Assembly: GCA_951406725.2 (NCBI GenBank) | Contig: OX597841.1 | Location: forward strand, 17,546,001-17,610,000 | Reading direction: 5' to 3' | Source of the DNA: Octopus vulgaris | Lineage: Eukaryota | Length of the DNA: 64,000 nt | Shown here: positions 7,003 through 62,897 of the stretch, piece by piece | Layout of the letters: each line of letters begins with the position of its first letter | How positions within the stretch are numbered: the first letter of the stretch is position 1 | Notes under the pieces: model-generated | Database searches by the model: none | What the model saw: only the letters and a program-made list of their open reading frames with translations | Told to the model about the DNA's origin: nothing | Translations under genes and position numbers: made by a program

Positions 7003-8177
7003 GGATACTGCTAGCGAACAGTGCTCCCGGTGAGCGCAAACTCGCACTCGCGCATCCGCGCTAGCTAGTCGTAAGTAGTCGATCCTACAGCAACTTTTTA
7101 ACCCTAACCCTAAACCTAATTTTTTTAACCCTAGCCCTAAACCTAATTTTTTAACCCTAACCCTAAACCTAATATTTTAACCCTAAACCTAAACCTAATT
7201 TTTTAACCCTAACCCTAAACCTAATTTTTTAACCCTAAACCTAAACCTAATTTTTTAACCCTAACCCTAAACCTAATATTTTAACCCTAAACCTAAACCT
7301 AATTTTTTAACCCTAACCCTAAACCTAATATTTTAACCCTAAACCTAAACCTAATTTTTTAACCCTAACCCTAAAACTAATATTTTAACCCTAAACCTAA
7401 ACCTAATTTTTTAACCCTAACCCTAAACCTAATATTTTAACCCTAAACCTAAACCTAATTTTTTAACCCTAACCCTAAACCTAATATTTTAACCCTAAAC
7501 CTAAACCTAATTTTTTAACCCTAACCCTAAACCTAATATTTTAACCCTAAACCTAAACCTAATTTTTTAACCCTAACCCTAAACCTAATATTTTAACCCT
7601 AAACCTAAACCTAATTTTTTAACCCTAACCCTAAACCTAATATTTTAACCCTAAACCTAAACCTAATTTTTTAACCCTAACCCTAAACCTAATATTTTAA
7701 CCCTAAACCTAAACCTAATTTTTTAACCCTAACCCTAAACCTAATATTTTAACCCTAAACCTAAACCTAATTTTTTAACCCTAACCCTAAACCTAATATT
7801 TTAACCCTAAACCTAAACCTAATTTTTTAACCCTAACCCTAAACCTAATATTTTAACCCTAAACCTAAACCTAATTTTTTAACCCTAACCCTAAACCTAA
7901 TTTTTTAACCCTAAACCTAAACCTAATTTTTAAACCCTAAACCTAAACCCTAAACCTAATTTTTTAACCCTAACCCTAAACCTAATTTTTTAACCCTAAC
8001 CCTAACCCTAAACCTAATTTTTAAACCCTAAACCTAATTTTTTAACTCTAACCTTAGTTTGCTTATAAAAATAATTTATTTACTTAGTTTAAAAAACTAT
8101 TTAGGATCGACTAATTACGACTAGGTAGCACGGAAGCGCGAGTGCGCGCACCGGGACCACTGTTCGCTAGTAGTACC
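7003..8177. mobile_element. Non-autonomous TIR transposon (Merlin-like) with an internal telomere-like 26-bp minisatellite
   Basis: Imperfect TIRs of ~80 bp, GGTACTACTAGCGAACAGTGG...; near-TSD GAGGGGTTT / GAGGGTTT; GGTAC fits the Merlin GGNRM terminus. Array at 7095-8055. Confidence 0.7.
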
Positions 8178-21933: not shown

Positions 21934-22324
21934 TCTTTATATATAAAAGTCAAGTTGTGTGTCTGTCTGTCTCCTACGACTTAGATTCCTAACTACTCCC
22001 ACATTTTGCGGTGCAGTTTAACCAAAACCGGGTATCTTATAGTCGTGATTCATATCGAACCCTTCTAGGTATTAGCGCACGTCTACGATGAGTCTACGAT
22101 TAAAAAAAAAATTTACCATCATTTTTTTCCATTTTAATGCATTTTCTCGCTATTATATAAGGGAAGTAACTCTCTAAAAATGTCTACGATGAGTCAACGA
22201 TTTAAAAAAAAAATTACCATAATTCTTTTTCCATTTTTTATGCATTTTTTTGCTATAACTCTCTAAAAATGCTTATATAGTTATTTCCCTTACAAACCCG
22301 AGCAACGCCGGGCGATACTGCTAG
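21934..22324 (+). mobile_element. Non-autonomous Helitron
   Basis: A|TCTTTATATATAAAA 5' end; CCCGAGCAACGCCGGG hairpin followed by CTAG|T 3' end; no TSD. Confidence 0.9.
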
Positions 22325-29565: not shown

Positions 29566-29698
29566 TTACGTGGCTCTGAGGGGGCTGTGGTCCAGTAAGT
29601 TTCAGGACCTTCGTGTAAAATCTCCGTTAAACCGGCAATCAGTTGGTATTTTCTTTTTTATTTCAGGTGACTGAATCCTGTTTATATTTGCATTTTTA

Positions 29699-29986
29699 AT
29701 GAATTTAAATCCGAACAATCATACGAAAATGTCTGAAGAAGCTATTATTAAGGGTTTCGCCGATGTCGTCAACTTTGTGTCCCGACTTATATTCGATGCA
29801 TGTCCTAGCTTAAAAATCCTGGAACCCGTGATTAAAGGTGTAATACCAGTGGTGGCAAAAGCAGTGATTGACTTAGATAAGGATCACCAAAGGGACGAAG
29901 GCGGTTATTATCGCTACCATGAATTGTCCTTCGATGGCCATTCGTCTACAGGAAGCAGACATGTGAAATCAAGATCGCGATGGTGA
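29699..29986 (+). CDS. Gene A: 95-aa apparent orphan protein in a single coding exon (acceptor AG at 29665-29666)
   Basis: Non-repetitive ORF just after TTTTCTTTTTTATTTCAG|. Amphipathic-looking N-half. ATTAAA at 30142. Homologous to gene B exon 2. Confidence 0.6.
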   Translation: MNLNPNNHTKMSEEAIIKGFADVVNFVSRLIFDACPSLKILEPVIKGVIPVVAKAVIDLDKDHQRDEGGYYRYHELSFDGHSSTGSRHVKSRSRW

Positions 29987-31387: not shown

Positions 31388-31900
31388 GAAAAGAATTGCA
31401 GCGTGGAATACCCTCCATCCGGCATTTGCCATATTCTGAACGCCTTACTTGCCTGGGCATGGACACATTGAAACTCCGACGTCTGGCAGCTGACTTGGCA
31501 GACACCCATAAGATTATTAACCATCGCACAAACAATAACTCTGAGCACCTTTTCAAACTACATCTGTCTAACACCTGTGGACATATTTACAAAGTCAGAA
31601 AACAGCACAGCTCCCATGACTTTAGGAAACATTTTTTTTCACGCTGAGAGTTGCTGAAGCATGGAACAAACTGCCGGCATCAGTTGTTAGTTGTCGGAGC
31701 ACTGCATCCTTCAAAAACTTCCATGCTTTCTGAGATTCGACAACACTACACCTGATTTTCTCCCCTCCATACACACACAAGCATGTATCTGACTCATACA
31801 TTGTTCGCTTTCCAGACATTTCTACATTACTGCATATGCTTTATACGCACTTTCTCACAAGTTGTGGTGCACCTGAGCACTGTATACAATAATTTCATTA
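31388..31900 (+). mobile_element. CR1-clade LINE 3' fragment
   Basis: IPSIRHLPYSERLTCLGMDTLKLRRLAADL...GHIYKV...RKHFF / RVAEAWNKLPASVV, a typical CR1 C-terminus. A further fragment lies at 32800-32970. Confidence 0.85.
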
Positions 31901-32024
31901 TATTTATAAGCCATTTAAGAAACACAAAAGCTGTTAGATTCACTTCATTTAAATTTAATTTGCATTATGGATTTTTGTCGGTGAACAGGTCGCGGTCTCA
32001 AAGCGACGAAAATATTTTGGCAAA

Positions 32025-32319
32025 TCTTTATATATAAAAGAGAAGTTGTGTGTCTGTCTCCTACGATTTAGATTCCTAACTACTCCCACATTTTGCGGTG
32101 CAGTTTAACCAAAACCGGATATCTTATAGTCGTGATTCATATCGAGCCCTTCTGGGTATTAGCGCACGTCTACGATGAGTCAACGATTAAAAAGAAAAAT
32201 TACCATTTTTTTCCATTTTAATGCATTCGTTCGCTATTATATAAGGGAAGTAACTCTCTAAAAATGCTTATATAGTTATTTCCCTTACAAACCCGAACAA
32301 CGCCGGGCGATACTGCTAG
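32025..32319 (+). mobile_element. Non-autonomous Helitron, short variant
   Basis: TC and CTAG ends with subterminal hairpin. Confidence 0.9.
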
Positions 32320-32461
32320 TTAAATTTAAATATTGAAGTGAATCTAACGGTTTATTGGAATGTTTGTTTCAATAATGAAAACACCCACCTATTTCAGATC
32401 TATAATTAAGAGATGAGGAATTATGTACTTTATTTATATTTGCCCTAATCTTGTTTGTTAT

Positions 32462-32512
32462 TAACACAACGTTTCGGCTGATATACCCTCCAGCCTTCAT
32501 CAGGTTTCTTGG
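32462..32512 (-). ncRNA. Minimal type I hammerhead ribozyme motif (Penelope-type)
   Basis: Minus strand: CUGAUGA-A-GGCUG-loop-CAGCC-GAAAC-GUU-GUG with an intact core. An inverted partner copy at 33149-33196 has a mutated core (CCGGUGA). Confidence 0.6.
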
Positions 32513-32585
32513 GGAAGTTTCGAACCTGGGTTGTCATGCCTAAGGTATTTTTCAACATGATGATGATGAGGCTGATAATGATGGC

Positions 32586-32720
32586 GGTGCCTTGGGAATG
32601 ATAGCAAAAGAGGCTGATTGCTACCTGGCTCAGATATCAGGAAACCCCAAAGTGGCAGAAATTCAAAAGATAGTGCTCATGGGAACTGCCCATATCCTAC
32701 GCAAAATACTTTCTATGTAA
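32586..32720 (+). mobile_element. R4/Dong-like non-LTR retrotransposon C-terminal fragment
   Basis: GALGMIAKEADCYLAQISGNPKVAEIQKIVLMGTAHILRKILSM* matches the GALG...IQK...GTAxILRKxL end of RLE-type elements. Confidence 0.75.
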
Positions 32721-33247
32721 TCTCAAATTTTAAAACAAACACATTTTCTTGTGGTTTCTTCAACATTCTCTAGAACAAGACTATGTACAAAACCAAATAT
32801 TTTTTTTCACGCTCAGAGTTGCTGAAGCATGGAACAAACTGCCTGCGTCAGTTGTTGACTGCCATGACACTGCATCCTTTAAGGCCCTCATGCTTTCCGA
32901 AATCCGCCGAAACTACACCTGATTATACATACTCAACATAAGTTGTAGTGCACCTGAGCACTGTACACAATGTTGTTGTTGTAGTAGTAGTAGTATTAGT
33001 GCACTCTAGGCATAACACCAACATGAACTTCCAACTTGAGGTCTCTGGGTGAGATTTCGAGCCAACTTGTACAAATGCAAAGCAAGTCAAACAAAATAAC
33101 CTCGAAAAATACCTTAGGAATGAGAACCCACGTTCGAAATTTCCCCAAGGCACCCGGTGAAGGCTGAAGGGTACATCAGCCGAAACGTTGTGTTAACAAC
33201 AAACAAGATGAGGACAAATAACCGTCAAATGTAAATAATGTACCCAC

Positions 33248-34430
33248 CTCTTTTTACTTGTTTCGGTCATTTGACTGCGGCCATGCTGGAGCACCGCCTT
33301 TAGTCGAGCAACTCGACCCCGGGACTTATTCTTTGTAAGCCCAGTACTTATTCTAACCGATAAGTGACGGGGACATAAACACACCAGCATCGGTTGTCAA
33401 GCAATGCTAGGGGAACGACTCACACACACATACATACATACATACATACATACGACGGGCTTCTTTCAGTTTCCGTCAAACAAATTCACTCACAAGGCTT
33501 TGTTCGGCCCGAGGCTCTAGTAGAAGACACTTGGCCAAGGTGCCTCGCAGTGGGACTGAAACCGGAACCATGTGGTTGGTAAACAAGCTACTTACCACAC
33601 AGCCACTCCTACGCCTATTTAATTTTTTCTTAATAAGATTATTTATTTATTTATTTTTTTTTTAGATAGTCTAAGCTTAAGACACAACATTTGCTCGGTT
33701 ACTATCTAGATGTTCAGCTTCATGTCTCTAATATAATATGCTGTATAGTAAGAATTCAAATAAAGTAGCCCCGAAAAGGGCTTTAATAGGTTCCCAGAGT
33801 ATATAGATTTTAGGTGGAAATTCTAATAAGGTATGTACACTACAATCGTGAAACCTGTTACGTAACAGCAGGCTAATCAGATATGAGATAATAACAATTC
33901 AAAGTAATTAACTGTGAAAAAAAAGCTTTTGTGCGTTCCCAGAGAATATTACCCTCAGCGAAGCTAGTGTTGGTATATTAGTGAATAAGCCACCAACCGA
34001 AATAAGTGGATCTATTGTTTAGGAGAATACTATTTACTTGTTTAAGCACTTGTTAACCAACCACATGGTTCCGGGTTCAGTCCCACTGCGTGGCATCTTG
34101 GGCAAGTGTCTTCTGCTATAGCCCCGGGCCGACCAATGCCTTGTGAGTGGATTTGGTACACGGAAACTGAAAGAAGCCTGTCATATATATGTATATATAT
34201 ATATATGTGTGTGTGTGTATGTGTTTGTGTGTCTGTGTTTGTCCCCCTGGCATTGCTTGACAACCGATGCTGGTGTGTTTACGTCCCCGTCACCTAGCGG
34301 TTCGGCAAAAGAGACCGATAGAATAAGTACTGGGCTTACAAAGAATAAGTACCGGGGTCGATTTGCTCGACTAAAGGCGGTGCTCCAGCATGGCCACAGT
34401 CAAATGACTGAAACAAGTAAAAGAGTAAAA
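33248..34430. mobile_element. Two divergently oriented SINE B copies (33248-33617 minus; 34042-34430 plus)
   Basis: Homology to SINE B. Confidence 0.85.
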
Positions 34431-34499
34431 TAGTAGTATTGGATAAAATGAGAAAATAACTAAAATAGTTCAAATTCTAAAAAGTAAGCATTACGAAAA

Positions 34500-34770
34500 T
34501 GAATGGGTTATTTCCCTTGCTGGCTATTTCCAAGAGGGAATGGGTTATTTCCCTTGAAAGCTTAAAAATCATTATTCCTACCGTTCATTCACACCCGAAC
34601 GTTATTCCTCACGCAGTTTACCCGAAAATTATTTTCTAAATCAATTTATACTTGAAACCTCCCCAGACACATAAGCAACGTGCGTGTGAAGTTTAAGAAA
34701 AATCGGTCGAGCCGTTTTGATGCAAAACGAGGACATACCGATACACACACATTCTCAATTTTAATAAGTA

Positions 34771-34772
<2 letters not shown>
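34500..34772 (-). mobile_element. 5' part of a second Helitron family
   Basis: Minus strand A|TCTTACTTATTAAAATTGAGAATGTGTGTG..., a Helitron-type 5' end. The 3' end was not found. Confidence 0.5.
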
Positions 34773-34811
<39 letters not shown>

Positions 34812-34814
<3 letters not shown>

Positions 34815-35595
34815 TTCTTTACTACCCACAAGGGGCTAAACACAGAGGTGACAAACAGGGACAGACAAACGGATCAAGTCGATTACATCTACCCAAGTGC
34901 GGAACTGGTACTTATTTAATCGACCCCGAAAGGATGAAAGGCAAAGTCGACCTCGGCCGAATTTGAACTCAGAACGTAACTCCAGACGAAATACCTATTT
35001 CTTTACTACCCACAAGGGGCTAAACACAGAGGGGACAAACAAGCACAGACAAACGGATCAAGTCGATTACATCGACCCCAGTGCGGAACTGGTACTTATT
35101 TAATCGACCCCGAAAGGATGAAAGGCAAAGTCGACCTCGGCGGAATTTGAACTCAGAACGTAACGGCAGACGAAATACCCATTTCTTTACTACCCACAAG
35201 AGGCTAAACACAGAGAGGACAAACAAGGACAGACAAACGGATCAAGTCGATTACATCTACCCAAGTGCGTAACTGGTACTTATTTAATCGACCCCGAAAG
35301 GATGAAAGGCAAAGTCGACCTCGGCCGAATTTGAACTCAGAACGTAACTCCAGACGAAATACCTATTTCTTTACTACCCACAAGGGGCTAAACACAGAGG
35401 GGTCAAACAAGGACAGACAAACGGATTAAGTCGATTACATCGACCCCAGTGCGGAACTGGTACTTATTTAATCGACCCCGAAAGGATGAAAGGCAAAGTC
35501 GACCTCGGCGGAATTTGAACTCAGAACGTAACGACAGACGAAATACGGCTGTGCATTTCTCCTGGTGTGCTAACGTTTCTGCCAGCTCGCCGCCT
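34812..35595 (-). mobile_element. SINE A, head plus 4 units
   Basis: Four ~184-bp tandem units. Confidence 0.9.
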
Positions 35596-35607
35596 TGAGA
35601 TATATAT

Positions 35608-35887
35608 ATGACGGGCTTCTTTCAGTTTCCGTCTACCAAATCTACTCACAAGGCTTTGGTCGGCTCGATGCTATAGGAAATACTTGCCCAAGGTGCCACA
35701 CGGTGGAACTGAACCCAGAACCATGTGGATGGGAGTGGCTGTGTGGTAAGTAGCTTCTTTACCAACCACATGGTTCCGGGTTCAGTCCCACTGCGTGGCA
35801 CCTTGGGCAGGTGTCTTCTACTATAGCCTCGGGCCGACCAAAGTCTCGTGAGTGGATTTGGTAGACGGAAACTGAAAGAAGCCCGTC

Positions 35888-35972
<85 letters not shown>

Positions 35973-36132
35973 CGCCGGAGTGGCTGTGTGGTAAGTAGCT
36001 TGTTTACCAACCACATGGTTCCGGGTTCAGTCCCAAGGCGTGGCACCTTGGGCAAGTGTCTTCTACTAGAGCCTCGGGCCAACCAAATCTTTGTGAGTGG
36101 ATTTGGTAGACGGAAACTGAAAGAAGCCCGTC

Positions 36133-36169
<37 letters not shown>

Positions 36170-37365
36170 CGTGTATGTTTGTGTGTCTGTGTTCGTCCCA
36201 CTATCATTGCTTGACAATCGATGCTGGTGTGTTTATGTCCCCGTCACTTAGCGGTTCGGCAAAAAGAGACCGATAGAATAAGTACTGGGCTTACAAAGAA
36301 TAAGTCCCGGGGTCGAGTTGCTCGATTAAAGGCAGTGCTCCAGCACGACATCAGTCAAATGACTGAAACAAGTAAAAGAGAGAGAGAGAGAGAGAGAGTA
36401 AGCTACTTACCACACAATCACGACTGCGCCTAGTTTTCCGTTAAATTTAAAAGTCCGTCTACGAGTGCTTGTGAATCGTCGATCGCGTCTATACATGATG
36501 GTATGTGCGAGGTTGAAGCAATCGAAAGTGATTCTGAAAGCCATTACAATTTACGAGACTCGCGGTCGTAGGATCGCGGTTTCGATTCACAGACCGGGCG
36601 TTGTCAGTGTTTATTGAGCGAAAACACCTAAAATCTCCACAAGGCTCCGGCAGGGGATGGTGGTGGTGATCCCTGCTGTACTCTTTCACCACAACTTTCT
36701 CTCACTCTTACTTCCTGTTTCTGTTGTACCTGTATTTCGAAGGGGCCGGCCTTGTCACTCTCTGTGTCACGCTGAATATCCCCGAGAACTACGTTAAGGG
36801 TGCACGTGTCTGTGGAGTGCTCAGTCACTTACACGTTAATTTCACGAGCAGGCTGTTCCGTTGATCGGATCAACCGGAACCCTCATCGTCGTAACCGACG
36901 GAGTGCTTCCACTCCACAATTTACGATCTTGACATTCTTCTTTACTTATAATATTCTTTACATTCTTCTGTCGAGTGGCTGTGTGGTAAGTAGCTTGCTT
37001 ACCAATCACATGGTTCCGGGTTCAGTCCAACTGCGTGGCACCTTGGCAAAGTGTCTTCTACTATAGCCTCGGGCCGACCAAAGCTTTGTCAGTGGATTTG
37101 GTAGACGGAAACTGAAAGAAGCCCATCGCATACACACACACACACACACGTGTGTGTGCGTGTGTGTGGCTGTGTTTGTCTCCCTCCCCCCCGCCATCGC
37201 TTGACAACCGATGCTGGTGTGTTTACGTCCGCGTAACTTAGCGGCTCGGCAAAAGAACCGATAGAATAAGTACTAGGCTTACAAAGAAAAAGTCCCGGGG
37301 TCGATTTGCTCGACTAAAGGCGGTGCTCCAGCATGGCCACACTCAAATGACAAGCAAATAAAAGG
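35608..37365. mobile_element. SINE cluster: several SINE B copies and a SINE C (36557-36910)
   Basis: Homology. SINE C is flanked by the direct repeat ACAATTTACGA. Confidence 0.85.
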
Positions 37366-37813
37366 AGAAAATTATAAATTTTATAGGTAAAATATTTTTC
37401 TGGGAACGATTTGGGGTTTATAACATTGCTACTATGGGAAATTATCGCTCAGCTTTACGAGTATTCGTTTTACGAGCGGTCTACAGTTAGCAGTACGCTT
37501 TACGCTACCTAAGGTTATCTCTACTGATATTCCATAGAAATTACAGCCTTAAAGTACCAGTTACGTACTGGGGTCGATATAATCAACTTAATCCGTTTTC
37601 CTTTCCTTGTTTGTCCTCTCTGTGTTTAGCCATAAGGGGCCAAACACAGAGAGGACAAACAAGGACAGACAAAGGGATTAAGTCGATTACATCCGAAAGG
37701 ATGAAAGGCAAAGTCGACCTCTGCGGAATTTGAACTCACAACGTAACGGCAGACGAAATACGGTTACGCATTTCGCCCGGCATGCTAACGGTTCTGCCAG
37801 CTCGCCGCCTTAA

Positions 37814-37992
37814 TACAATAAACTCGACCTAGCCACACACACACACACACAATCAACAACACACACGTTAATTAACACACATACACACACATATAGATAC
37901 ACCCACGTACATACACACTCACAAACCTATAAATATCGGTGTTTCGCCGTGGAATTCTTTTCGCTTGTATCTTGTCTGAGAAACGGGTAAGT
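37814..37992 (+). promoter_or_regulatory. Gene B core promoter and non-coding exon 1 (about 37955-37986)
   Basis: TACAATAAACTCGACCTAGCC(AC)nAATCAA...CTATAAATAT (TATA at 37928)...GAGAAACGG|GTAAGT (GT at 37987). Colinear with 26856-27031. Confidence 0.7.
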
Positions 37993-38025
37993 CACAATCT
38001 GACTGCTTTTAAACGCTCCACTTAA

Positions 38026-38613
38026 CCCCTTACCCGGCAGAAACGAATATATGCGTTTTGACCGAAATCGTTTTTTTTTTTCTATCTCTGGCGAGTTAAC
38101 TCGTCAAAAGATAGACTCGCCAAAATCGACAGCAAACTAGTTCCTTTGTCTATTATAAACTCTTTTTTGACATATACGAGTATATTCGCTCACTTTATAC
38201 GTCTGGCAGTGACGATTTCTGCCACCTTTCGCTTGAGTAGGGCATTGAAGACCGAGTATGATTTAATCACCTGGAGACAGTCGAAGGGTTGGAAGGCACA
38301 TTTTAGGAATAGAAGTTTTCACTTTGTTCTTACGTTGTTTTTTTTTATACCTTTATATTATAACCCCACCATGTCGATAACCAAATAAAATAACATGATT
38401 TTTTGTAAAAGTAATATGATTTTAGAAAAAAACGGGTTAACTCGTTTCTGCCCAAAATGGTAATTTAAAATCAATATTATTGAATTAAAATTCATAATAA
38501 AAAAGGTTTGAAATATACCCCGAAATCACCATTCAAAACATAGTAAAATAAAACAATTAAAAAATAGGTCTGAAAAAATACATTTATTTTCAAAATAATT
38601 GTTGGGTAAGGGG
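38026..38613. mobile_element. piggyBac-like MITE, 588 bp, in gene B intron 1
   Basis: TTAA|CCCCTTACCC ... GGGTAAGGGG|TTAA. Confidence 0.85.
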
Positions 38614-39460
38614 TTAAAGTAGGTCAAACTATGACAAAAAAATTTAGTAAATTTATAAAATCAAAACTACCTTATTTCCATCTGTACACCCTTGCAATTC
38701 ATTACGGGTACTAAAAAATGTCCTCAGCCTTATTCTAGAAACTACTGCATTGGGTTTTTAGCTGTGGCAGCAAGATCAGTCTTTCGTGGAGGTGAACTTG
38801 CAGTGACGGGAGTATTGTAATACGAATGGCAAATAGCGTATCTTGTTAGGGCAGACAACAAGAGGTAATTTAAATATTGGTCCTACTTTCAAGATTTAGT
38901 TCTTTTAAACCCACTAAAATTAAAGGATTTTATTATAAATTCAACGAAAAATACTTTTATAAACCTAGTTTTCCCTAAGCACACGTTCGTATGTATATAT
39001 ATATATATATATATTGGCCTTCGACCACCGCCGTGAGAACATCTCTTGTCTTCGTCTGCCGATAAAGGCATTTTCCCAAAATACGCCAGCTAAACTTGTT
39101 GTACTGTTATTAGTCGTAAGACACCCGCTGTTTTCGTCCTGTTTTTACCATTATTGTTTCTTGTATTTCATTTTTGTTTTTTGTATTTCATTATTGTTTT
39201 TTGTATTTTATATTCGTGTGGCATCGTCCGTTTTTCTGTCCCTATTTCGTATACATTCGATCCTTCTTCCAAGAAATCTAATGCTCGTAGCTTAGTTTTC
39301 CCGGGGGCTGGCCGGATCGGAGTGATCTCAAGATTAATCAGCCGAAATTGCTACGATGATCCGGTTATTGACTGAAGATTGAAGGCTTCGAATGTCCCGT
39401 CCGTTTTTTTTTGTATCGTCTTCTAAATGTTTTGCGTTCTTGTCCCAGTTTGTATTTTTC

Positions 39461-39514
<54 letters not shown>

Positions 39515-39566
39515 TTTATATATTTGTTGTGCAGGATTTTTTATGTGAAGTCGTGTGTTGAAACGG

Positions 39567-39721
39567 ATATTGTTATATTTCGGAATGGTCATTTTGCCAG
39601 TTTAGCCGAATTAATGTAAAAAATAAACAACACTGAAGCAAAATAACACCAAATATATAGTGCGTTGCGTGTTTTTATTGGCTAAACGGGCAAAATGACC
39701 ATTCCGAAATATAACAATATA
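39567..39721. repeat. Inverted repeat with ~42-bp arms
   Basis: ATATTGTTATATTTCGGAATGGTCATTTTGCC... and its reverse complement at 39679-39721. Confidence 0.85.
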
Positions 39722-39759
39722 TATATATCCTTAAATCCTTAAAAATGTTCCAGCTCGAA

Positions 39760-39889
39760 GGCTGCGGCCATGCTTATTCTATCGGTCTCTTTTGCCGAAC
39801 CGCTAAGTGACGAGGACGTAAACACATCAGCATCGGTTGTCAAGCGATGTTGGGGGGGGGGACATAGACACACAAACAAATACACACAC

Positions 39890-39937
<48 letters not shown>

Positions 39938-40505
39938 GACAGGCTTATTTCAGTCTCCGTCTACCAAATCCACTCACAAGGCTTTGGTCGGCCCGAGGCT
40001 ATAGTAGAAGACACTTGCCCAAGGTGCCACACAGTGGGACTGAACCCGGAACCATGTGGTTCGTAAGCAAGCTACTTACCACACAGCCACTCCTATGTAG
40101 AATAATAAATTATATTTTTACCGTATACAAAATATAAAAGAATTATTTTATACTCTTTTGCTTTTTCAGTCATTTGACTGCAGCCATGCTGGAGCACCAC
40201 CCTTATAGTTGAATAAATCGACCCCAGGATTTATTCTTCGTAAGCCTAGTATTTATTCTCTCGATGTCTTTTTGCCGAACCACTTCGTCATGGGGACGTA
40301 AACACACCAGCATCAGTTGTCAAGCGATATTAGGGCCATACACACACATATACGACGGGCTTCTTTCGGTTTCCGACCACCAAATCCATTCACAAGGCTT
40401 TGGTCATTCCGAGGCTACAGTAGAAGACACTTGTCCAAGGTGCCACGCAGTAGGACTGAATTCAGAACCTTGCGGTTGATAAGCAAGCTACTTACCACGC
40501 AGCCA
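39760..40505 (-). mobile_element. Two SINE B copies
   Basis: Homology to SINE B. Confidence 0.85.
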
Positions 40506-40658
40506 AATTCCTTATTATTTTATTATAAAAATACTATAGGATTTTTTTTAAACATTGAATCGCTATGACGGCCCAGTATAGTATTATAGGTATCACTGGG
40601 GCCTATATCCAAAATATAGTTGAGAACCCTAATTTTGAACCCCCAATTTATATATATA

Positions 40659-41378
40659 CTAGCAGTATCGCCCGGCGTTGCTCGGGTTTGTAAGGGAAAT
40701 AACTATATAAGCATTTTTAGAGAGTTATAGCCAAAAAATAGCAAAAAAATGCATTAAAAATGGAAAAAAAATGATACTCTTTACTCTTTTACTTGTTTCA
40801 GTCATTTGATTGCGGCCATGCTGGAGCACCGCCTTTAGTCGAGCAAATCGACCCCGGGACTTATTCTTTGTAAGCCCAGTACTTATTCTATCGGTCTCTT
40901 TTGCCGAACCGCTAAAATTTTTAAAAAAATCGTTGACTCATCGTAGACATTTTTAGAGAGTTACTTCCCTTATATAATAGCAAAAAAATGCATTAAAATG
41001 GAAAAAAATGATGGTAAATTTTTTTTTAAATCGTAGACTCATCGTAGACGCGCGCTAATACCCAGAAGGGCTCGATATGAATCACGACTATAAGATACCC
41101 GGTTTTGGTTACACTGCACCGCAAAATGTGGGAGTAGTTAGGAATCTAAATCGTAGGAGACAGACATACAACTTCACTTTTATATATAAAGATTTGCCAA
41201 AATATTTTCGTCGCTTTGGGACCGCGACCTGTTCACCGACAAAATTCCATAATGCAAATAAAATTTAAATGAAGTGAATCTAACAGTTTTTGTGTTTCTT
41301 AAATGGCTTATAAATATAATAATGAAATTATTGTATACAGTGCCCAGGTACACACAACTTGACTTTTATACATAAAGA
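40659..41378 (-). mobile_element. Compound Helitron with two 5' ends, captured DNA (41193-41361) and a nested SINE B fragment (40775-40915)
   Basis: CTAG at 40659; 5' TC ends at 41192 and 41378. The intervening segment matches 31858-32024. Confidence 0.85.
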
Positions 41379-41588
41379 TATATATTTATTTATTTCAGAT
41401 AACTGGAAAAGCCCCGCTCTTTTTACCTCAATATACTCAGCTTAATTTGGATAACCGTAAGAAAATCGACCAATCGTACAATTTAAGAGATTGTTGAAAG
41501 ACCGTCAAAGTTTTATACCCGCGTGCTACCGAAGTGAATCCTTATTTAAGATTCTTTAAACCAGTTGTGACGACCGTGATACCATACC

Positions 41589-42905
41589 ATGGAAATATTA
41601 TTGTCTTTTTTTGGATTCGGAAACTCAGAGACCAGCTTTTATGAGGAGAGCAAAGTTGAATATGAATACAGTTCTTGCGAAGAAAACTGGTGGTCCACAA
41701 GTGGAAGTTCGCGATCCAGCAGCCCAGAGCCCGAGAGTTCGAGATCCGGCAGTGTGTGGTCCAATATTCCGTGCGCCGGCAGATCCGACAGCTTGCTTTC
41801 CAATAGTTTGTGCTCCAGCAGATCTGATAGCAGTTTGTGGTCCGACGGTTCGTTGACTGATGGTTCGTCGACTGATGGTTCGTCGACTGATGGTTCGTCG
41901 ACTGATGGTTCGTCGACCGATGGTTCGTTGACTGATGGTTCGTCGACGGACGGTTCGTTGACAGACGGTTCGTTGACAGACGGTTCGTTGACAGACGGTT
42001 CGTTGACCGACGGTTCGTTGACAGACGGTTCGTTGACAGACGGTTCGTTGACAGACGGTTCGTTGACAGATGGTTCGTTGACAGACAGTTCATTGACAGA
42101 CGGTTCACATTTCGATCGTTCGCGGTCCAGCAGCTCGACCTGTGACCTTTTGAGCTCCAGCTGTTCACAGTCTAATAGTTTACAATCCAATAGTCCATTG
42201 TTCCGCTGTTCACAGTCCAGCAAGCAAAGTTTCAGCCAACCAAAGCCCTACAAGCAACTTACCAGCCCTCAACGGTCTGGCTGCCAGCAGCCCAGCCAGG
42301 AAAGGTCTGGCTGTCCGCAGCCCAGCCAGGAAAGGTCTGGCTGCCCGCAGCCCAGCAAAGAAAGGTCTGGCTGCCCACAGCCCAGCCAGGAAAGGTCTGG
42401 CTGCCAGCAGCCCAGCAAAGAAAGGTCTGGCTGCCCGCAGCCCAGCAAGCAATGGTCTGGCTGCCAGCAGCCCAGCCAGGAAAGGTCTGGCTGCCCGCAG
42501 CCCAGCCAGGAAAGGTCTGGCTGCCAGCAGCCCAGCAAGGAAAGGTTTGACTGCCCGCAGCCCAGCAAGCAAAGGTCTGGCTGCCCGCAGCCCAGCAAGG
42601 AAAGGTCTGTCTGCCCGCAGCCCAGCAAGCAAAGGTCTGGCTGCCCACAGCCCAGCAAAGAAAGGTCTGGATGCCCGCAGCCCAGCAAAGAAAGGTCTGG
42701 CTGCCCGCAGCCCAGCAAGCAAAGGTCTGGCAGCCCGCAGCCCAGCAAAGAAAGGTCTGGTTGCCCACAGCCCAGCAAGCAAAGGTTTGGGTGCCCTAAG
42801 TCTAGCAGGCAAAAGTCTAACTGCACGCAGTCCAGCAAGCAAAGGTCCGGCAGTCCACAGTCATGTTGCCCGCGTTCCAGAAAGCGAAGATACGGCTGTT
42901 CATAA
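41589..42905 (+). CDS. Gene B: 438-aa Ser/Cys/Pro/Gln-rich repeat protein, (DGS[L/S]T)x~18 and (RSGCPQPS[K/Q][E/Q])x~20
   Basis: First ATG after acceptor TTTATTTCAG| (41398), Kozak ACCATGG. Unique N-terminal, linker and C-terminal segments are all open in one frame. Repeat units are 15 and 30 bp with synonymous variation. Confidence 0.85.
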   Translation: MEILLSFFGFGNSETSFYEESKVEYEYSSCEENWWSTSGSSRSSSPEPESSRSGSVWSNIPCAGRSDSLLSNSLCSSRSDSSLWSDGSLTDGSSTDGSSTDGSSTDGSSTDGSLTDGSSTDGSLTDGSLTDGSLTDGSLTDGSLTDGSLTDGSLTDGSLTDGSLTDSSLTDGSHFDRSRSSSSTCDLLSSSCSQSNSLQSNSPLFRCSQSSKQSFSQPKPYKQLTSPQRSGCQQPSQERSGCPQPSQERSGCPQPSKERSGCPQPSQERSGCQQPSKERSGCPQPSKQWSGCQQPSQERSGCPQPSQERSGCQQPSKERFDCPQPSKQRSGCPQPSKERSVCPQPSKQRSGCPQPSKERSGCPQPSKERSGCPQPSKQRSGSPQPSKERSGCPQPSKQRFGCPKSSRQKSNCTQSSKQRSGSPQSCCPRSRKRRYGCS

Positions 42906-62517: not shown

Positions 62518-62626
62518 CGGAGATGTACTCGCATAGCAAGTGATTTGATCTGAGATCGTGTGCTGGAACGAAAACAATTGCAGCGTGGAAGGTGTTTATA
62601 AGCCATATAAGAAACACACAAAAACC

Positions 62627-62794
62627 GTTAGATTCACTTCAACTTTTAAATTTTATTTGTCAAAATATTTTCGTTGCTTTGAGACCGCGACCTGTTCACT
62701 GACAAAGCTTTGTAGCTTTGTCAGTGAACAGGTCACGGTCTGAAAGCGACGAAAATATTTTGACAAATTATATTTAAATGTTGAAGTGAATCTA
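62627..62794. repeat. Palindromic Penelope-like end (~80-bp arms); family also at 31335-32350
   Basis: Arms are reverse complements around GACAAAGC-TTTGTA-GCTTTGTC. Confidence 0.7.
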
Positions 62795-62897
62795 AATAAT
62801 TTTCATCATACTATATTTCTATTGTCATTTATAACTTTATACACACCTTATGGTTTTCTCTATATATCAAGCTATATATTCTATTGTTTTTGTAGAG

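What the first reader, a model, noticed from the sequence alone, without database searches (positions are those of the whole stretch)
31858..41378. Helitron capture with donor and product both visible and a microhomology junction
Seen: the minus element at 40659-41378 reads Helitron 5' end (TCTTTATGTATAAAAGTCAAGTTGTG), then ~170 bp matching 31858-32024 (CR1 tail joined to a Penelope-like segment, a locus-specific junction), then a second Helitron 5' end and body. The donor segment is the 5' flank of the Helitron at 32025. The switch falls at CAAGTTGTG, shared by the Helitron terminus and the CR1 tail. Inference: upstream-flank capture by microhomology-mediated template switching, distinct from the usual 3' read-through model. 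The outer end lies 20 nt before gene B's acceptor, so it probably supplies the branch region.
Basis: partly seen in the sequence, partly recalled or inferred. Interest (0 to 1): 0.7.

Follow-up and report, generated by a model that had tools for sequence, protein, structure and literature searches.

The report
Helitron patched with neighbour's upstream flank
One copy of a very common rolling-circle transposon carries an inverted 167-base copy of DNA from 9 kb away plus a second start, most likely pasted in by ordinary break repair using a neighbouring transposon as template; it is a clear example of a known kind of capture, has not spread, and shows no new way of jumping.

Summary
The minus-strand element 41378-40659 reads Helitron head (29 nt), an inverted copy of 31858-32024, then a second head and body. 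The switch falls on CAAGTTGTG. Both diagnostic junctions occur nowhere else in the 2.8-Gb genome, and homology stops at the element's ends, so this is neither a mobile compound family nor an inversion. The product is not a moved copy of the 32025 element: that one has one internal unit, the product has two, and 102 of 129 sampled copies match the product's body better. Best reading: a resident Helitron broke near nt 26-29. Its body end likely invaded the inverted neighbour, copied through that neighbour's head into 167 nt of flank, and rejoined by microhomology (gap-filling / filler-DNA capture, known for single-copy Pack-TIRs and proposed for Helitrons). Two more head-flank-whole-element cases with a local donor were found elsewhere; one has an empty A|T donor site. 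Breaks are about as common inside the body as at the head, which argues against a transposase-specific step. The splice acceptor is supported by one RNA-like contig; the branch-point claim is untested.

The parts
40659..41378 (-). Compound non-autonomous Helitron (720 bp), TC...CTAG, between A and T of a TA tract
41350..41378 (-). Outer Helitron 5' end (GTCAAG type, 29 nt); likely the native head of the resident element
   Evidence: 29 of 30 match to the head at 21934; 1420 exact heads of this type
41353..41361 (-). Microhomology CAAGTTGTG at the switch (product side)
41194..41361 (-). Captured copy of the donor flank: LINE 3' tail plus left part of an inverted-arm repeat
40659..41193 (-). Inner head (GTGAAG type) and two-unit body ending in hairpin + CTAG
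40777..40915 (-). SINE 3' fragment inserted into the second unit
   Evidence: matches many window SINE copies at 92-98%; interrupts unit 2 relative to L160/L168/L169
31858..31866 (+). Microhomology CAAGTTGTG in the LINE tail (donor side)
31409..31902 (+). 5'-truncated LINE (CR1/L2-like label is recalled, no Pfam hit), inserted into the arm of the inverted-arm repeat; end coordinate approximate
   Evidence: tail motif at 7617 places; repeat arm stops at 31408 and resumes near 31903; Pfam blank
31903..32024 (+). Inverted-arm repeat, left of the donor Helitron; it continues at 32320-32353 (Penelope-like label not confirmed)
   Evidence: uninterrupted copies L003-L030; 11,937 empty-site matches; no hammerhead in Rfam
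32025..32319 (+). Donor-side Helitron, one unit, GAGAAG head, inserted at A|T without target duplication
41397..41398 (+). AG splice acceptor of the downstream gene
   Evidence: RNA-like contig of X9 matches 41397-41790 and has 28 further letters that do not align
41589..42905 (+). 438-aa Ser-rich and Cys/Gln/Pro-repeat ORF of the downstream gene
   Evidence: no Pfam family

Best explanation
The element at 40659-41378 is a single-copy Helitron holding an inverted copy of its neighbour's upstream flank and head, likely written in by host break repair after the element had inserted. Inferred steps: (1) a two-unit Helitron inserted normally at the TA tract; (2) it broke near nt 26-29; (3) the body-side end invaded the inverted Helitron at 32025, 9 kb away, through their long homology; (4) synthesis ran through that element's head and 167 nt into its flank; (5) the new strand rejoined the stranded 29-nt head at CAAGTTGTG. 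Shown: anatomy, direction of copying, uniqueness, intact donor locus, and a body unlike the donor's. Inferred: the break, the order of steps and that no transposase took part.
For: Outer junction found at 1 place with up to 2 mismatches. The ungapped version gave 4 hits at 3 mismatches, none with a Helitron head in the matched letters. LINE/repeat junction at 2 places, donor and product. The donor locus is whole: the repeat resumes after CTAG as in uninterrupted copies, and flanks share no homology. The product body is two-unit with G at nt 81; the donor is one-unit with T. The donor ranks 103 of 129 copies against the product's first unit (10 substitutions in 211 bases; best copies 1-3; median 6). 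Donor/product differences rise along the element: 2 in 79, 3 in 76, 7 in 84, as expected if the copied tract ends early. GTCAAG heads are mostly two-unit (26 of 29 with a 3' end). Breaks to foreign DNA are not concentrated at the head: 9 cases among 65 of 66 filter hits read, at about 49% sensitivity, against 3-4 of 28 and 4-5 of 15 hits at 17% for two internal windows. Published parallel: 56.9% of 281 animal Pack-TIRs lie within 15 kb of their template, 67.6% show microhomology, and 91 of 97 primate cases have the uncaptured element in outgroups (PMC8277862, section 8).
Against: The inner head should be donor-derived yet differs at nt 17 (T versus A), and both states are common head variants; one later point mutation must be assumed. 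No derived change is shared by donor and product inside the Helitron, so the return point is not mapped. Head and body variants are freely mixed across the family, which weakens subfamily arguments. No haplotype or relative with the uncaptured element at this site was seen. Divergence gives no sign of a delay between insertion and capture: by my polarising of the differences against the repeat copies, the product has about 3 private changes in 153 flank bases, against 1-3 in 214 body bases. In the second inverted case (L208) the donor A|T site is empty, which this model explains only by a template on another haplotype. The number of intact body anchors was not counted, so the head-versus-body comparison assumes similar denominators.
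Confidence: 0.6

Rival explanations
1. Same template switch, but during Helitron activity: transposase nicked at the 5' end (at integration or at reuse of the site as donor), synthesis stalled after about 29 nt, jumped to 31858 by microhomology, and returned to the element through long homology.
For: Same product predicted. Helraiser work proposes a nick at the left end followed by leading-strand resynthesis of the donor (PMC5876387, passages). Capture and insertion look about the same age. All head-flank-whole-element cases found (this one, L208, L226, L243) break at nt 26-34.
Against: Those cases come from a filter that can only see breaks before nt 36. Control filters inside the body give similar corrected rates.
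Confidence: 0.22
2. Chimeric transposition: on another haplotype a head became fused upstream of the donor Helitron, and the composite then hopped 9 kb.
For: The outer ends are a clean A|TC...CTAG|T insertion. Multiple 5' ends from nesting are described in maize and Fusarium (PMC3288121, PMC5148889; passages).
Against: No head or remnant upstream of 31858. The donor would have to have lost a unit and changed at nt 17 and 81 afterwards. No other copy exists.
Confidence: 0.08
3. Two-site strand transfer: transposase joined one 5' end to the A at 32024 and another to the A beside 41378, closed only one 3' end (at the second site), and repair stitched the stranded head to the displaced flank; the inner element is then a whole independent copy.
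For: In L208 the copied 293 bp end exactly at an empty A|T site 11-13.6 kb away, and the inner element carries a different head type from the outer one. Here it would explain nt 17, nt 81 and the unit number at once.
Against: Here the donor site is occupied, so it would have been hit twice; that site is filled in about 11 of 11,950 repeat copies (0.09%). An empty donor site is also explained by insertion polymorphism. One case only.
Confidence: 0.07
4. Inversion between the two inverted Helitrons with a staggered break, or an assembly error.
For: The two elements are inverted repeats 8.3 kb apart.
Against: 3' flanks are not swapped. The copies differ by 6%, with changes spread along the length. 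A contig of run X1 carries product alleles over 41219-41290 without a difference (X1 may be the source sample).
Confidence: 0.03

Closest known systems
Single-copy Pack-TIRs formed by transposition-independent gap filling (PMC8277862; section 8 and passages read)
   Same: Single copy, template within 15 kb, microhomology at a break point, element ends intact.
   Different: Host element is a Helitron. The second junction is long homology with a sister element, so a second 5' end is imported and the filler is that sister's upstream flank.
Filler-DNA model of Helitron capture (as stated in PMC6544945, passages read; 2-13 bp end junctions in Hel1)
   Same: Foreign DNA inside the element, short homology with the source locus, source identifiable.
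   Different: There the captured forms amplified as subfamilies and both ends are short junctions; here it is one-sided and unamplified.
Helitrons with multiple 5' termini from nesting or self-insertion (PMC5148889, PMC3288121; passages read)
   Same: Two 5' ends, one 3' end; short duplicated head.
   Different: Here the heads are separated by 167 nt of locus-specific host flank with a visible donor, and the donor holds no nested head.
End-bypass (3' read-through) capture shown with Helraiser (as summarised in PMC5876387 and PMC5148889, passages read)
   Same: Flanking host DNA ends up within Helitron ends.
   Different: Captured DNA is from the 5' side, inverted, and lies inside the head; there is no bypassed 3' end.

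Membership tests
Non-autonomous canonical Helitron | 5' TC and 3' CTRR ends | tested here: met
Non-autonomous canonical Helitron | Insertion between A and T without target duplication | tested here: met
   Uninterrupted repeat copies read AAA|TTAAA-type at the site in most of 28 loci; 11,937 empty-site matches
Non-autonomous canonical Helitron | Subterminal hairpin about 10-12 nt before the 3' end | tested here: inconclusive
   Hairpin predicted at that place but weak: -4.5 kcal/mol, z -0.9; the same palindrome stands at the end of Rep-coding elements
Non-autonomous canonical Helitron | Rep-coding partner with similar ends in the genome | tested here: met
   150 PF14214 matches. Of 20 stretches read, 10 have a 3' end 88-89% alike over 34-36 nt within about 130 nt of the ORF end or at the same spacing; L375 also has a 5' end 83% alike over 29 nt. 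No partner sharing the body was found.
Gap-filling / filler-DNA capture | Template nearby in cis | tested here: met
   9.3 kb, inverted
Gap-filling / filler-DNA capture | Microhomology at a break point above chance | tested here: met
   9 nt exact; 4.6% of random 200-nt windows reach this for head nt 15-45, 18% for the whole head
Gap-filling / filler-DNA capture | Single copy | tested here: met
Gap-filling / filler-DNA capture | Uncaptured element at the orthologous site in an outgroup | tested here: inconclusive
   Contigs of X4, X7, X10, X13 end 21-23 nt inside the outer head; no listed contig bridges 41350 in any run, control X1 included, and the tables were cut
End-bypass capture | Captured DNA lies 3' of a bypassed terminator | tested here: not met
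   Captured DNA is 5' flank
Mobilised chimeric Helitron family | Further copies at unrelated sites | tested here: not met
Penelope-like element (captured repeat) | Hammerhead ribozyme or link to a Penelope RT/GIY-YIG ORF | tested here: inconclusive
   No hammerhead in Rfam at E<=5; variable inverted arms seen; ORF link not tested
Branch-point donor for the downstream intron | Lariat branch maps inside the Helitron end | not testable with these tools
   Only motif positions: candidates at -36 and -30 lie in the head, host candidates at -10 and -6; a competing AG at 41376-41377

The most novel reading that the evidence does not exclude
Helitron transposase can join 5' ends to two nearby target sites and close only one 3' end, so that the upstream flank of an attempted insertion site is copied, inverted, into a compound element about 10 kb away: a transposase-driven route of 5'-flank capture, seen at least twice in this genome, once with the first site left empty.
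Probability: 0.1. Interest if true: 0.7.

Novelty: new variant of a known kind. Interest (0 to 1): 0.33.

Why it matters
How Helitrons take up host DNA other than by 3' read-through is still argued mostly from cases without a visible source. A family with 20,548 exact heads, in which product and donor can be read side by side, makes the filler-DNA model countable: distance, orientation, microhomology and break position can be tallied genome-wide. Sister-templated repair would also give a simple origin for double-5' elements that carry upstream flank and could later move. This copy captured only repeat DNA and shows no second copy, so its own biological weight is small.

Tried and rejected
Widespread compound family: rejected. 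Inversion: rejected. Moved copy of the 32025 element: disfavoured. Mapping the return point by subfamily markers: failed, the family is mosaic. Break hotspot at nt 26-35: first suggested by the head filters, not upheld by two internal controls. Looking for the uncaptured allele in public runs: no RNA holder on record was listed; contigs break inside the repeat and the tables are cut, so the lack of a bridging contig says nothing. A 54-nt X4 contig over the LINE/repeat junction has depth 49.7 against 21.7 for the exon contig, a weak hint of two copies in that lineage. No cover at 40585-40629 in four runs is not used. Donors were sought within about 15 kb and not found for L123, L140, L243, L248, L259 and L223, L322, L327, L332. 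Rfam gave one chance hit; Pfam none for three ORFs. Earlier scan notes: none near, none by words. Literature: searches; no listing or passage seen describes sister-templated 5'-flank capture in a Helitron, but the library lacks most subscription papers, most listed papers were seen only as listings, and no supplements were read. PMC13317346 (passages) added nothing.
Full report
Setting. The window is G000:C28:17546001-17610000 of a 2.8-Gb animal genome. Its SINEs look like those of octopuses; that is recalled, not tested. A repeat annotation of an octopus lists recently active Helitrons (PMC13282606, passages).

Observation. On the minus strand from 41378 the sequence reads a Helitron head, then a segment aligning to 31858 onward. 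The alignment 41361-40948 versus 31858-32266 is 94% identical and covers 167 nt of flank plus the first 242 nt of the Helitron at 32025. The switch lies on CAAGTTGTG, the longest head match in the 1 kb upstream of the donor element; 4.6% of 3000 random windows reach 9 nt for head nt 15-45, 18% for the whole TA-rich head. Homology ends at 31858 and at the CTAG ends.

Are these Helitrons? They have TC and CTAG ends and sit between A and T. Uninterrupted copies of the repeat that hosts the 32025 element show no target duplication. The hairpin is weak by energy, but Rep-coding elements end in an 88-89% similar 3' end, and one has an 83% similar 5' end. There are 20,548 exact heads; some belong to related families with other bodies.

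Donor and direction. At 31.9 kb an inverted-arm repeat was split by a truncated LINE (arm stops at 31408, resumes near 31903) and then by the Helitron, after which the repeat continues (32320). The product holds only a slice of this nest, so 31.9 kb is the donor. The LINE/repeat junction occurs at 2 places, donor and product. The outer junction occurs at 1 place; an ungapped version gave 4 hits at 3 mismatches, none with a head in the matched letters. The repeat/Helitron junction is not unique: 12 places with several head types against 11,937 empty sites.

The product is not the donor moved. The donor has one internal unit, a GAGAAG head and T at nt 81. The product has two units, a SINE piece, a GTGAAG inner head and G at nt 81. 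Against the product's first unit the donor ranks 103 of 129 copies; that sample includes the nearest copies found and copies picked for likeness to the donor, so it is not random. Differences rise along the element (2/79, 3/76, 7/84). The outer head type is two-unit in 26 of 29 sampled copies with a 3' end. The simplest reading is one resident two-unit element with an insertion of flank plus second head. Against this: nt 17 of the inner head differs from the donor, no derived change is shared in the body, and head and body variants mix freely in the family.

How general? Three filters for heads not followed by the usual body gave 66 distinct places; 65 were read (L271 fell outside the script's window). 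Nine show a head joined to foreign or rearranged DNA; two more have doubtful heads and were not counted; the rest are small indels, internal deletions, short head duplications or related families. L208 (C4:165.65 Mb) reads head, 1.85 kb reversed LINE, 293 bp copied at 98.6% from 11-13.6 kb away in inverted orientation, then a whole element; its donor segment ends at an empty A|T site. L226 is a 773-bp direct tandem duplication breaking at head nt 33 on a 5-nt microhomology. L243 has 29 nt between two heads with no donor within 15 kb. L253 is a fold-back, L132 an inverted body, L259 an internal replacement. Two control filters inside the body gave 3-4 events among 28 hits (8 hits are one tandem array) and 4-5 among 15. 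With sensitivities of 0.49 and 0.17 this is about 18 versus about 18-29 breaks per 9-nt window: no excess at the head, assuming similar numbers of intact anchors, which were not counted. None of the four body-break loci read to 15 kb repeated the simple head-flank-element form.

Age and relatives. Contigs of runs X4, X7, X10 and X13 run from the exon 21-23 nt into the outer head, so the insertion is shared by runs under four organism labels. X4, X7 and X10 share the same exon variants and may be one lineage. No listed contig bridges the switch, even in X1, so the uncaptured state could not be tested.

Mechanism. Best (0.6): a break in the resident head, invasion of the inverted neighbour by the long-homology end, synthesis through its head into the flank, and microhomology rejoining. 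This is the gap-filling route described for single-copy Pack-TIRs: 56.9% within 15 kb, microhomology in 67.6% (PMC8277862, section 8); that paper also states that template switching is seen in Helitron duplications (passage). It is the filler-DNA model for Helitrons (PMC6544945, passages). The same switch during transposase-initiated synthesis gives the same product (0.22). Chimeric hopping (0.08) lacks any trace at the donor. Two-site strand transfer (0.07) is suggested by the empty site of L208 but needs a 0.09% double hit here. Inversion or misassembly is close to excluded (0.03).

Gene B. One RNA-like contig (X9; RNA status is a guess) matches 41397-41790 and carries 28 unaligned letters beyond, which fits splicing at the AG 41397-41398. 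Branch-like motifs at a usual distance (-36, -30; the usual 18-40 nt range is recalled) lie in the Helitron head; the host 20 nt offer only -10 and -6; a CCCTAAT motif that would stand at about -47 without the element is displaced by 720 bp; an extra AG at 41376-41377 could compete. This is plausible, untested, and independent of the capture.

Verdict. Real, single-copy, and best filed as a Helitron variant of repair-driven capture in which a sister element supplies the long homology. Seven literature searches showed no description of this exact form, within a library that lacks most subscription papers; supplements were not read. Interest 0.33.

Noticed in passing
L208 / L218 (G000:C4:165647300-165649800 minus; donor 165660967-165661258): Second inverted case: head, reversed LINE piece, 293 bp copied from 11-13.6 kb away, whole Helitron; the donor segment ends at an empty A|T site.
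   Followed up: partly
L226 / L273 (G000:C1:97607182-97608735): 773-bp tandem duplication of flank plus head, breaking at head nt 33 on a 5-nt microhomology, 99.4% identical.
   Followed up: partly
L209 (G000:C11:43709300-43709750): Helitron whose body (nt 34-391) is inverted relative to its head, with TA tracts at both break points.
   Followed up: partly
L118, L119, L121; also L314, L315: Copies on different contigs share an internal partial head (nt 6-27) or a duplicated first 66-71 nt: double-head forms that did transpose.
   Followed up: partly
L306-L313 (G000:C17:65.751-65.772 Mb): Tandem array of about 1.9-kb units, each with a 70-nt Helitron 5' piece, a locally copied segment and a reversed Helitron; 72 nt of its 3' end are identical to an element 10.5 kb away.
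   Followed up: partly
window 31903-32353, 62560-62830; L003-L030: Abundant repeat (about 12,000 site matches) with inverted arms of variable length; one A|T site in it holds Helitrons of several head types at 11 independent places, roughly tenfold above my rough estimate of the genome-wide rate per site.
   Followed up: partly
Helitron family, loci L144-L202: Head variants, the nt-81 variant and unit number combine freely, suggesting frequent recombination among copies.
   Followed up: partly
window 41589-42905 (+): 438-aa ORF of 5-residue Ser/Asp repeats followed by 10-residue Cys/Gln/Pro repeats; no Pfam family; all six frames are open over parts of the repeats.
   Followed up: no
window 32437-32553 and 33104-33220: Inverted pair containing a CTGATGA-stem-GAAA arrangement like a minimal hammerhead of Penelope-type repeats (recalled); Rfam did not call it.
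   Followed up: no
window 29675-29986 (+): 103-codon open frame with an in-frame Met and protein-like composition, no Pfam hit; possibly an exon of the neighbouring gene.
   Followed up: no
L054, L091, L139, L193, L268 and others: Precise head-to-tail (CTAG|TC) tandem Helitrons are common in this family.
   Followed up: no
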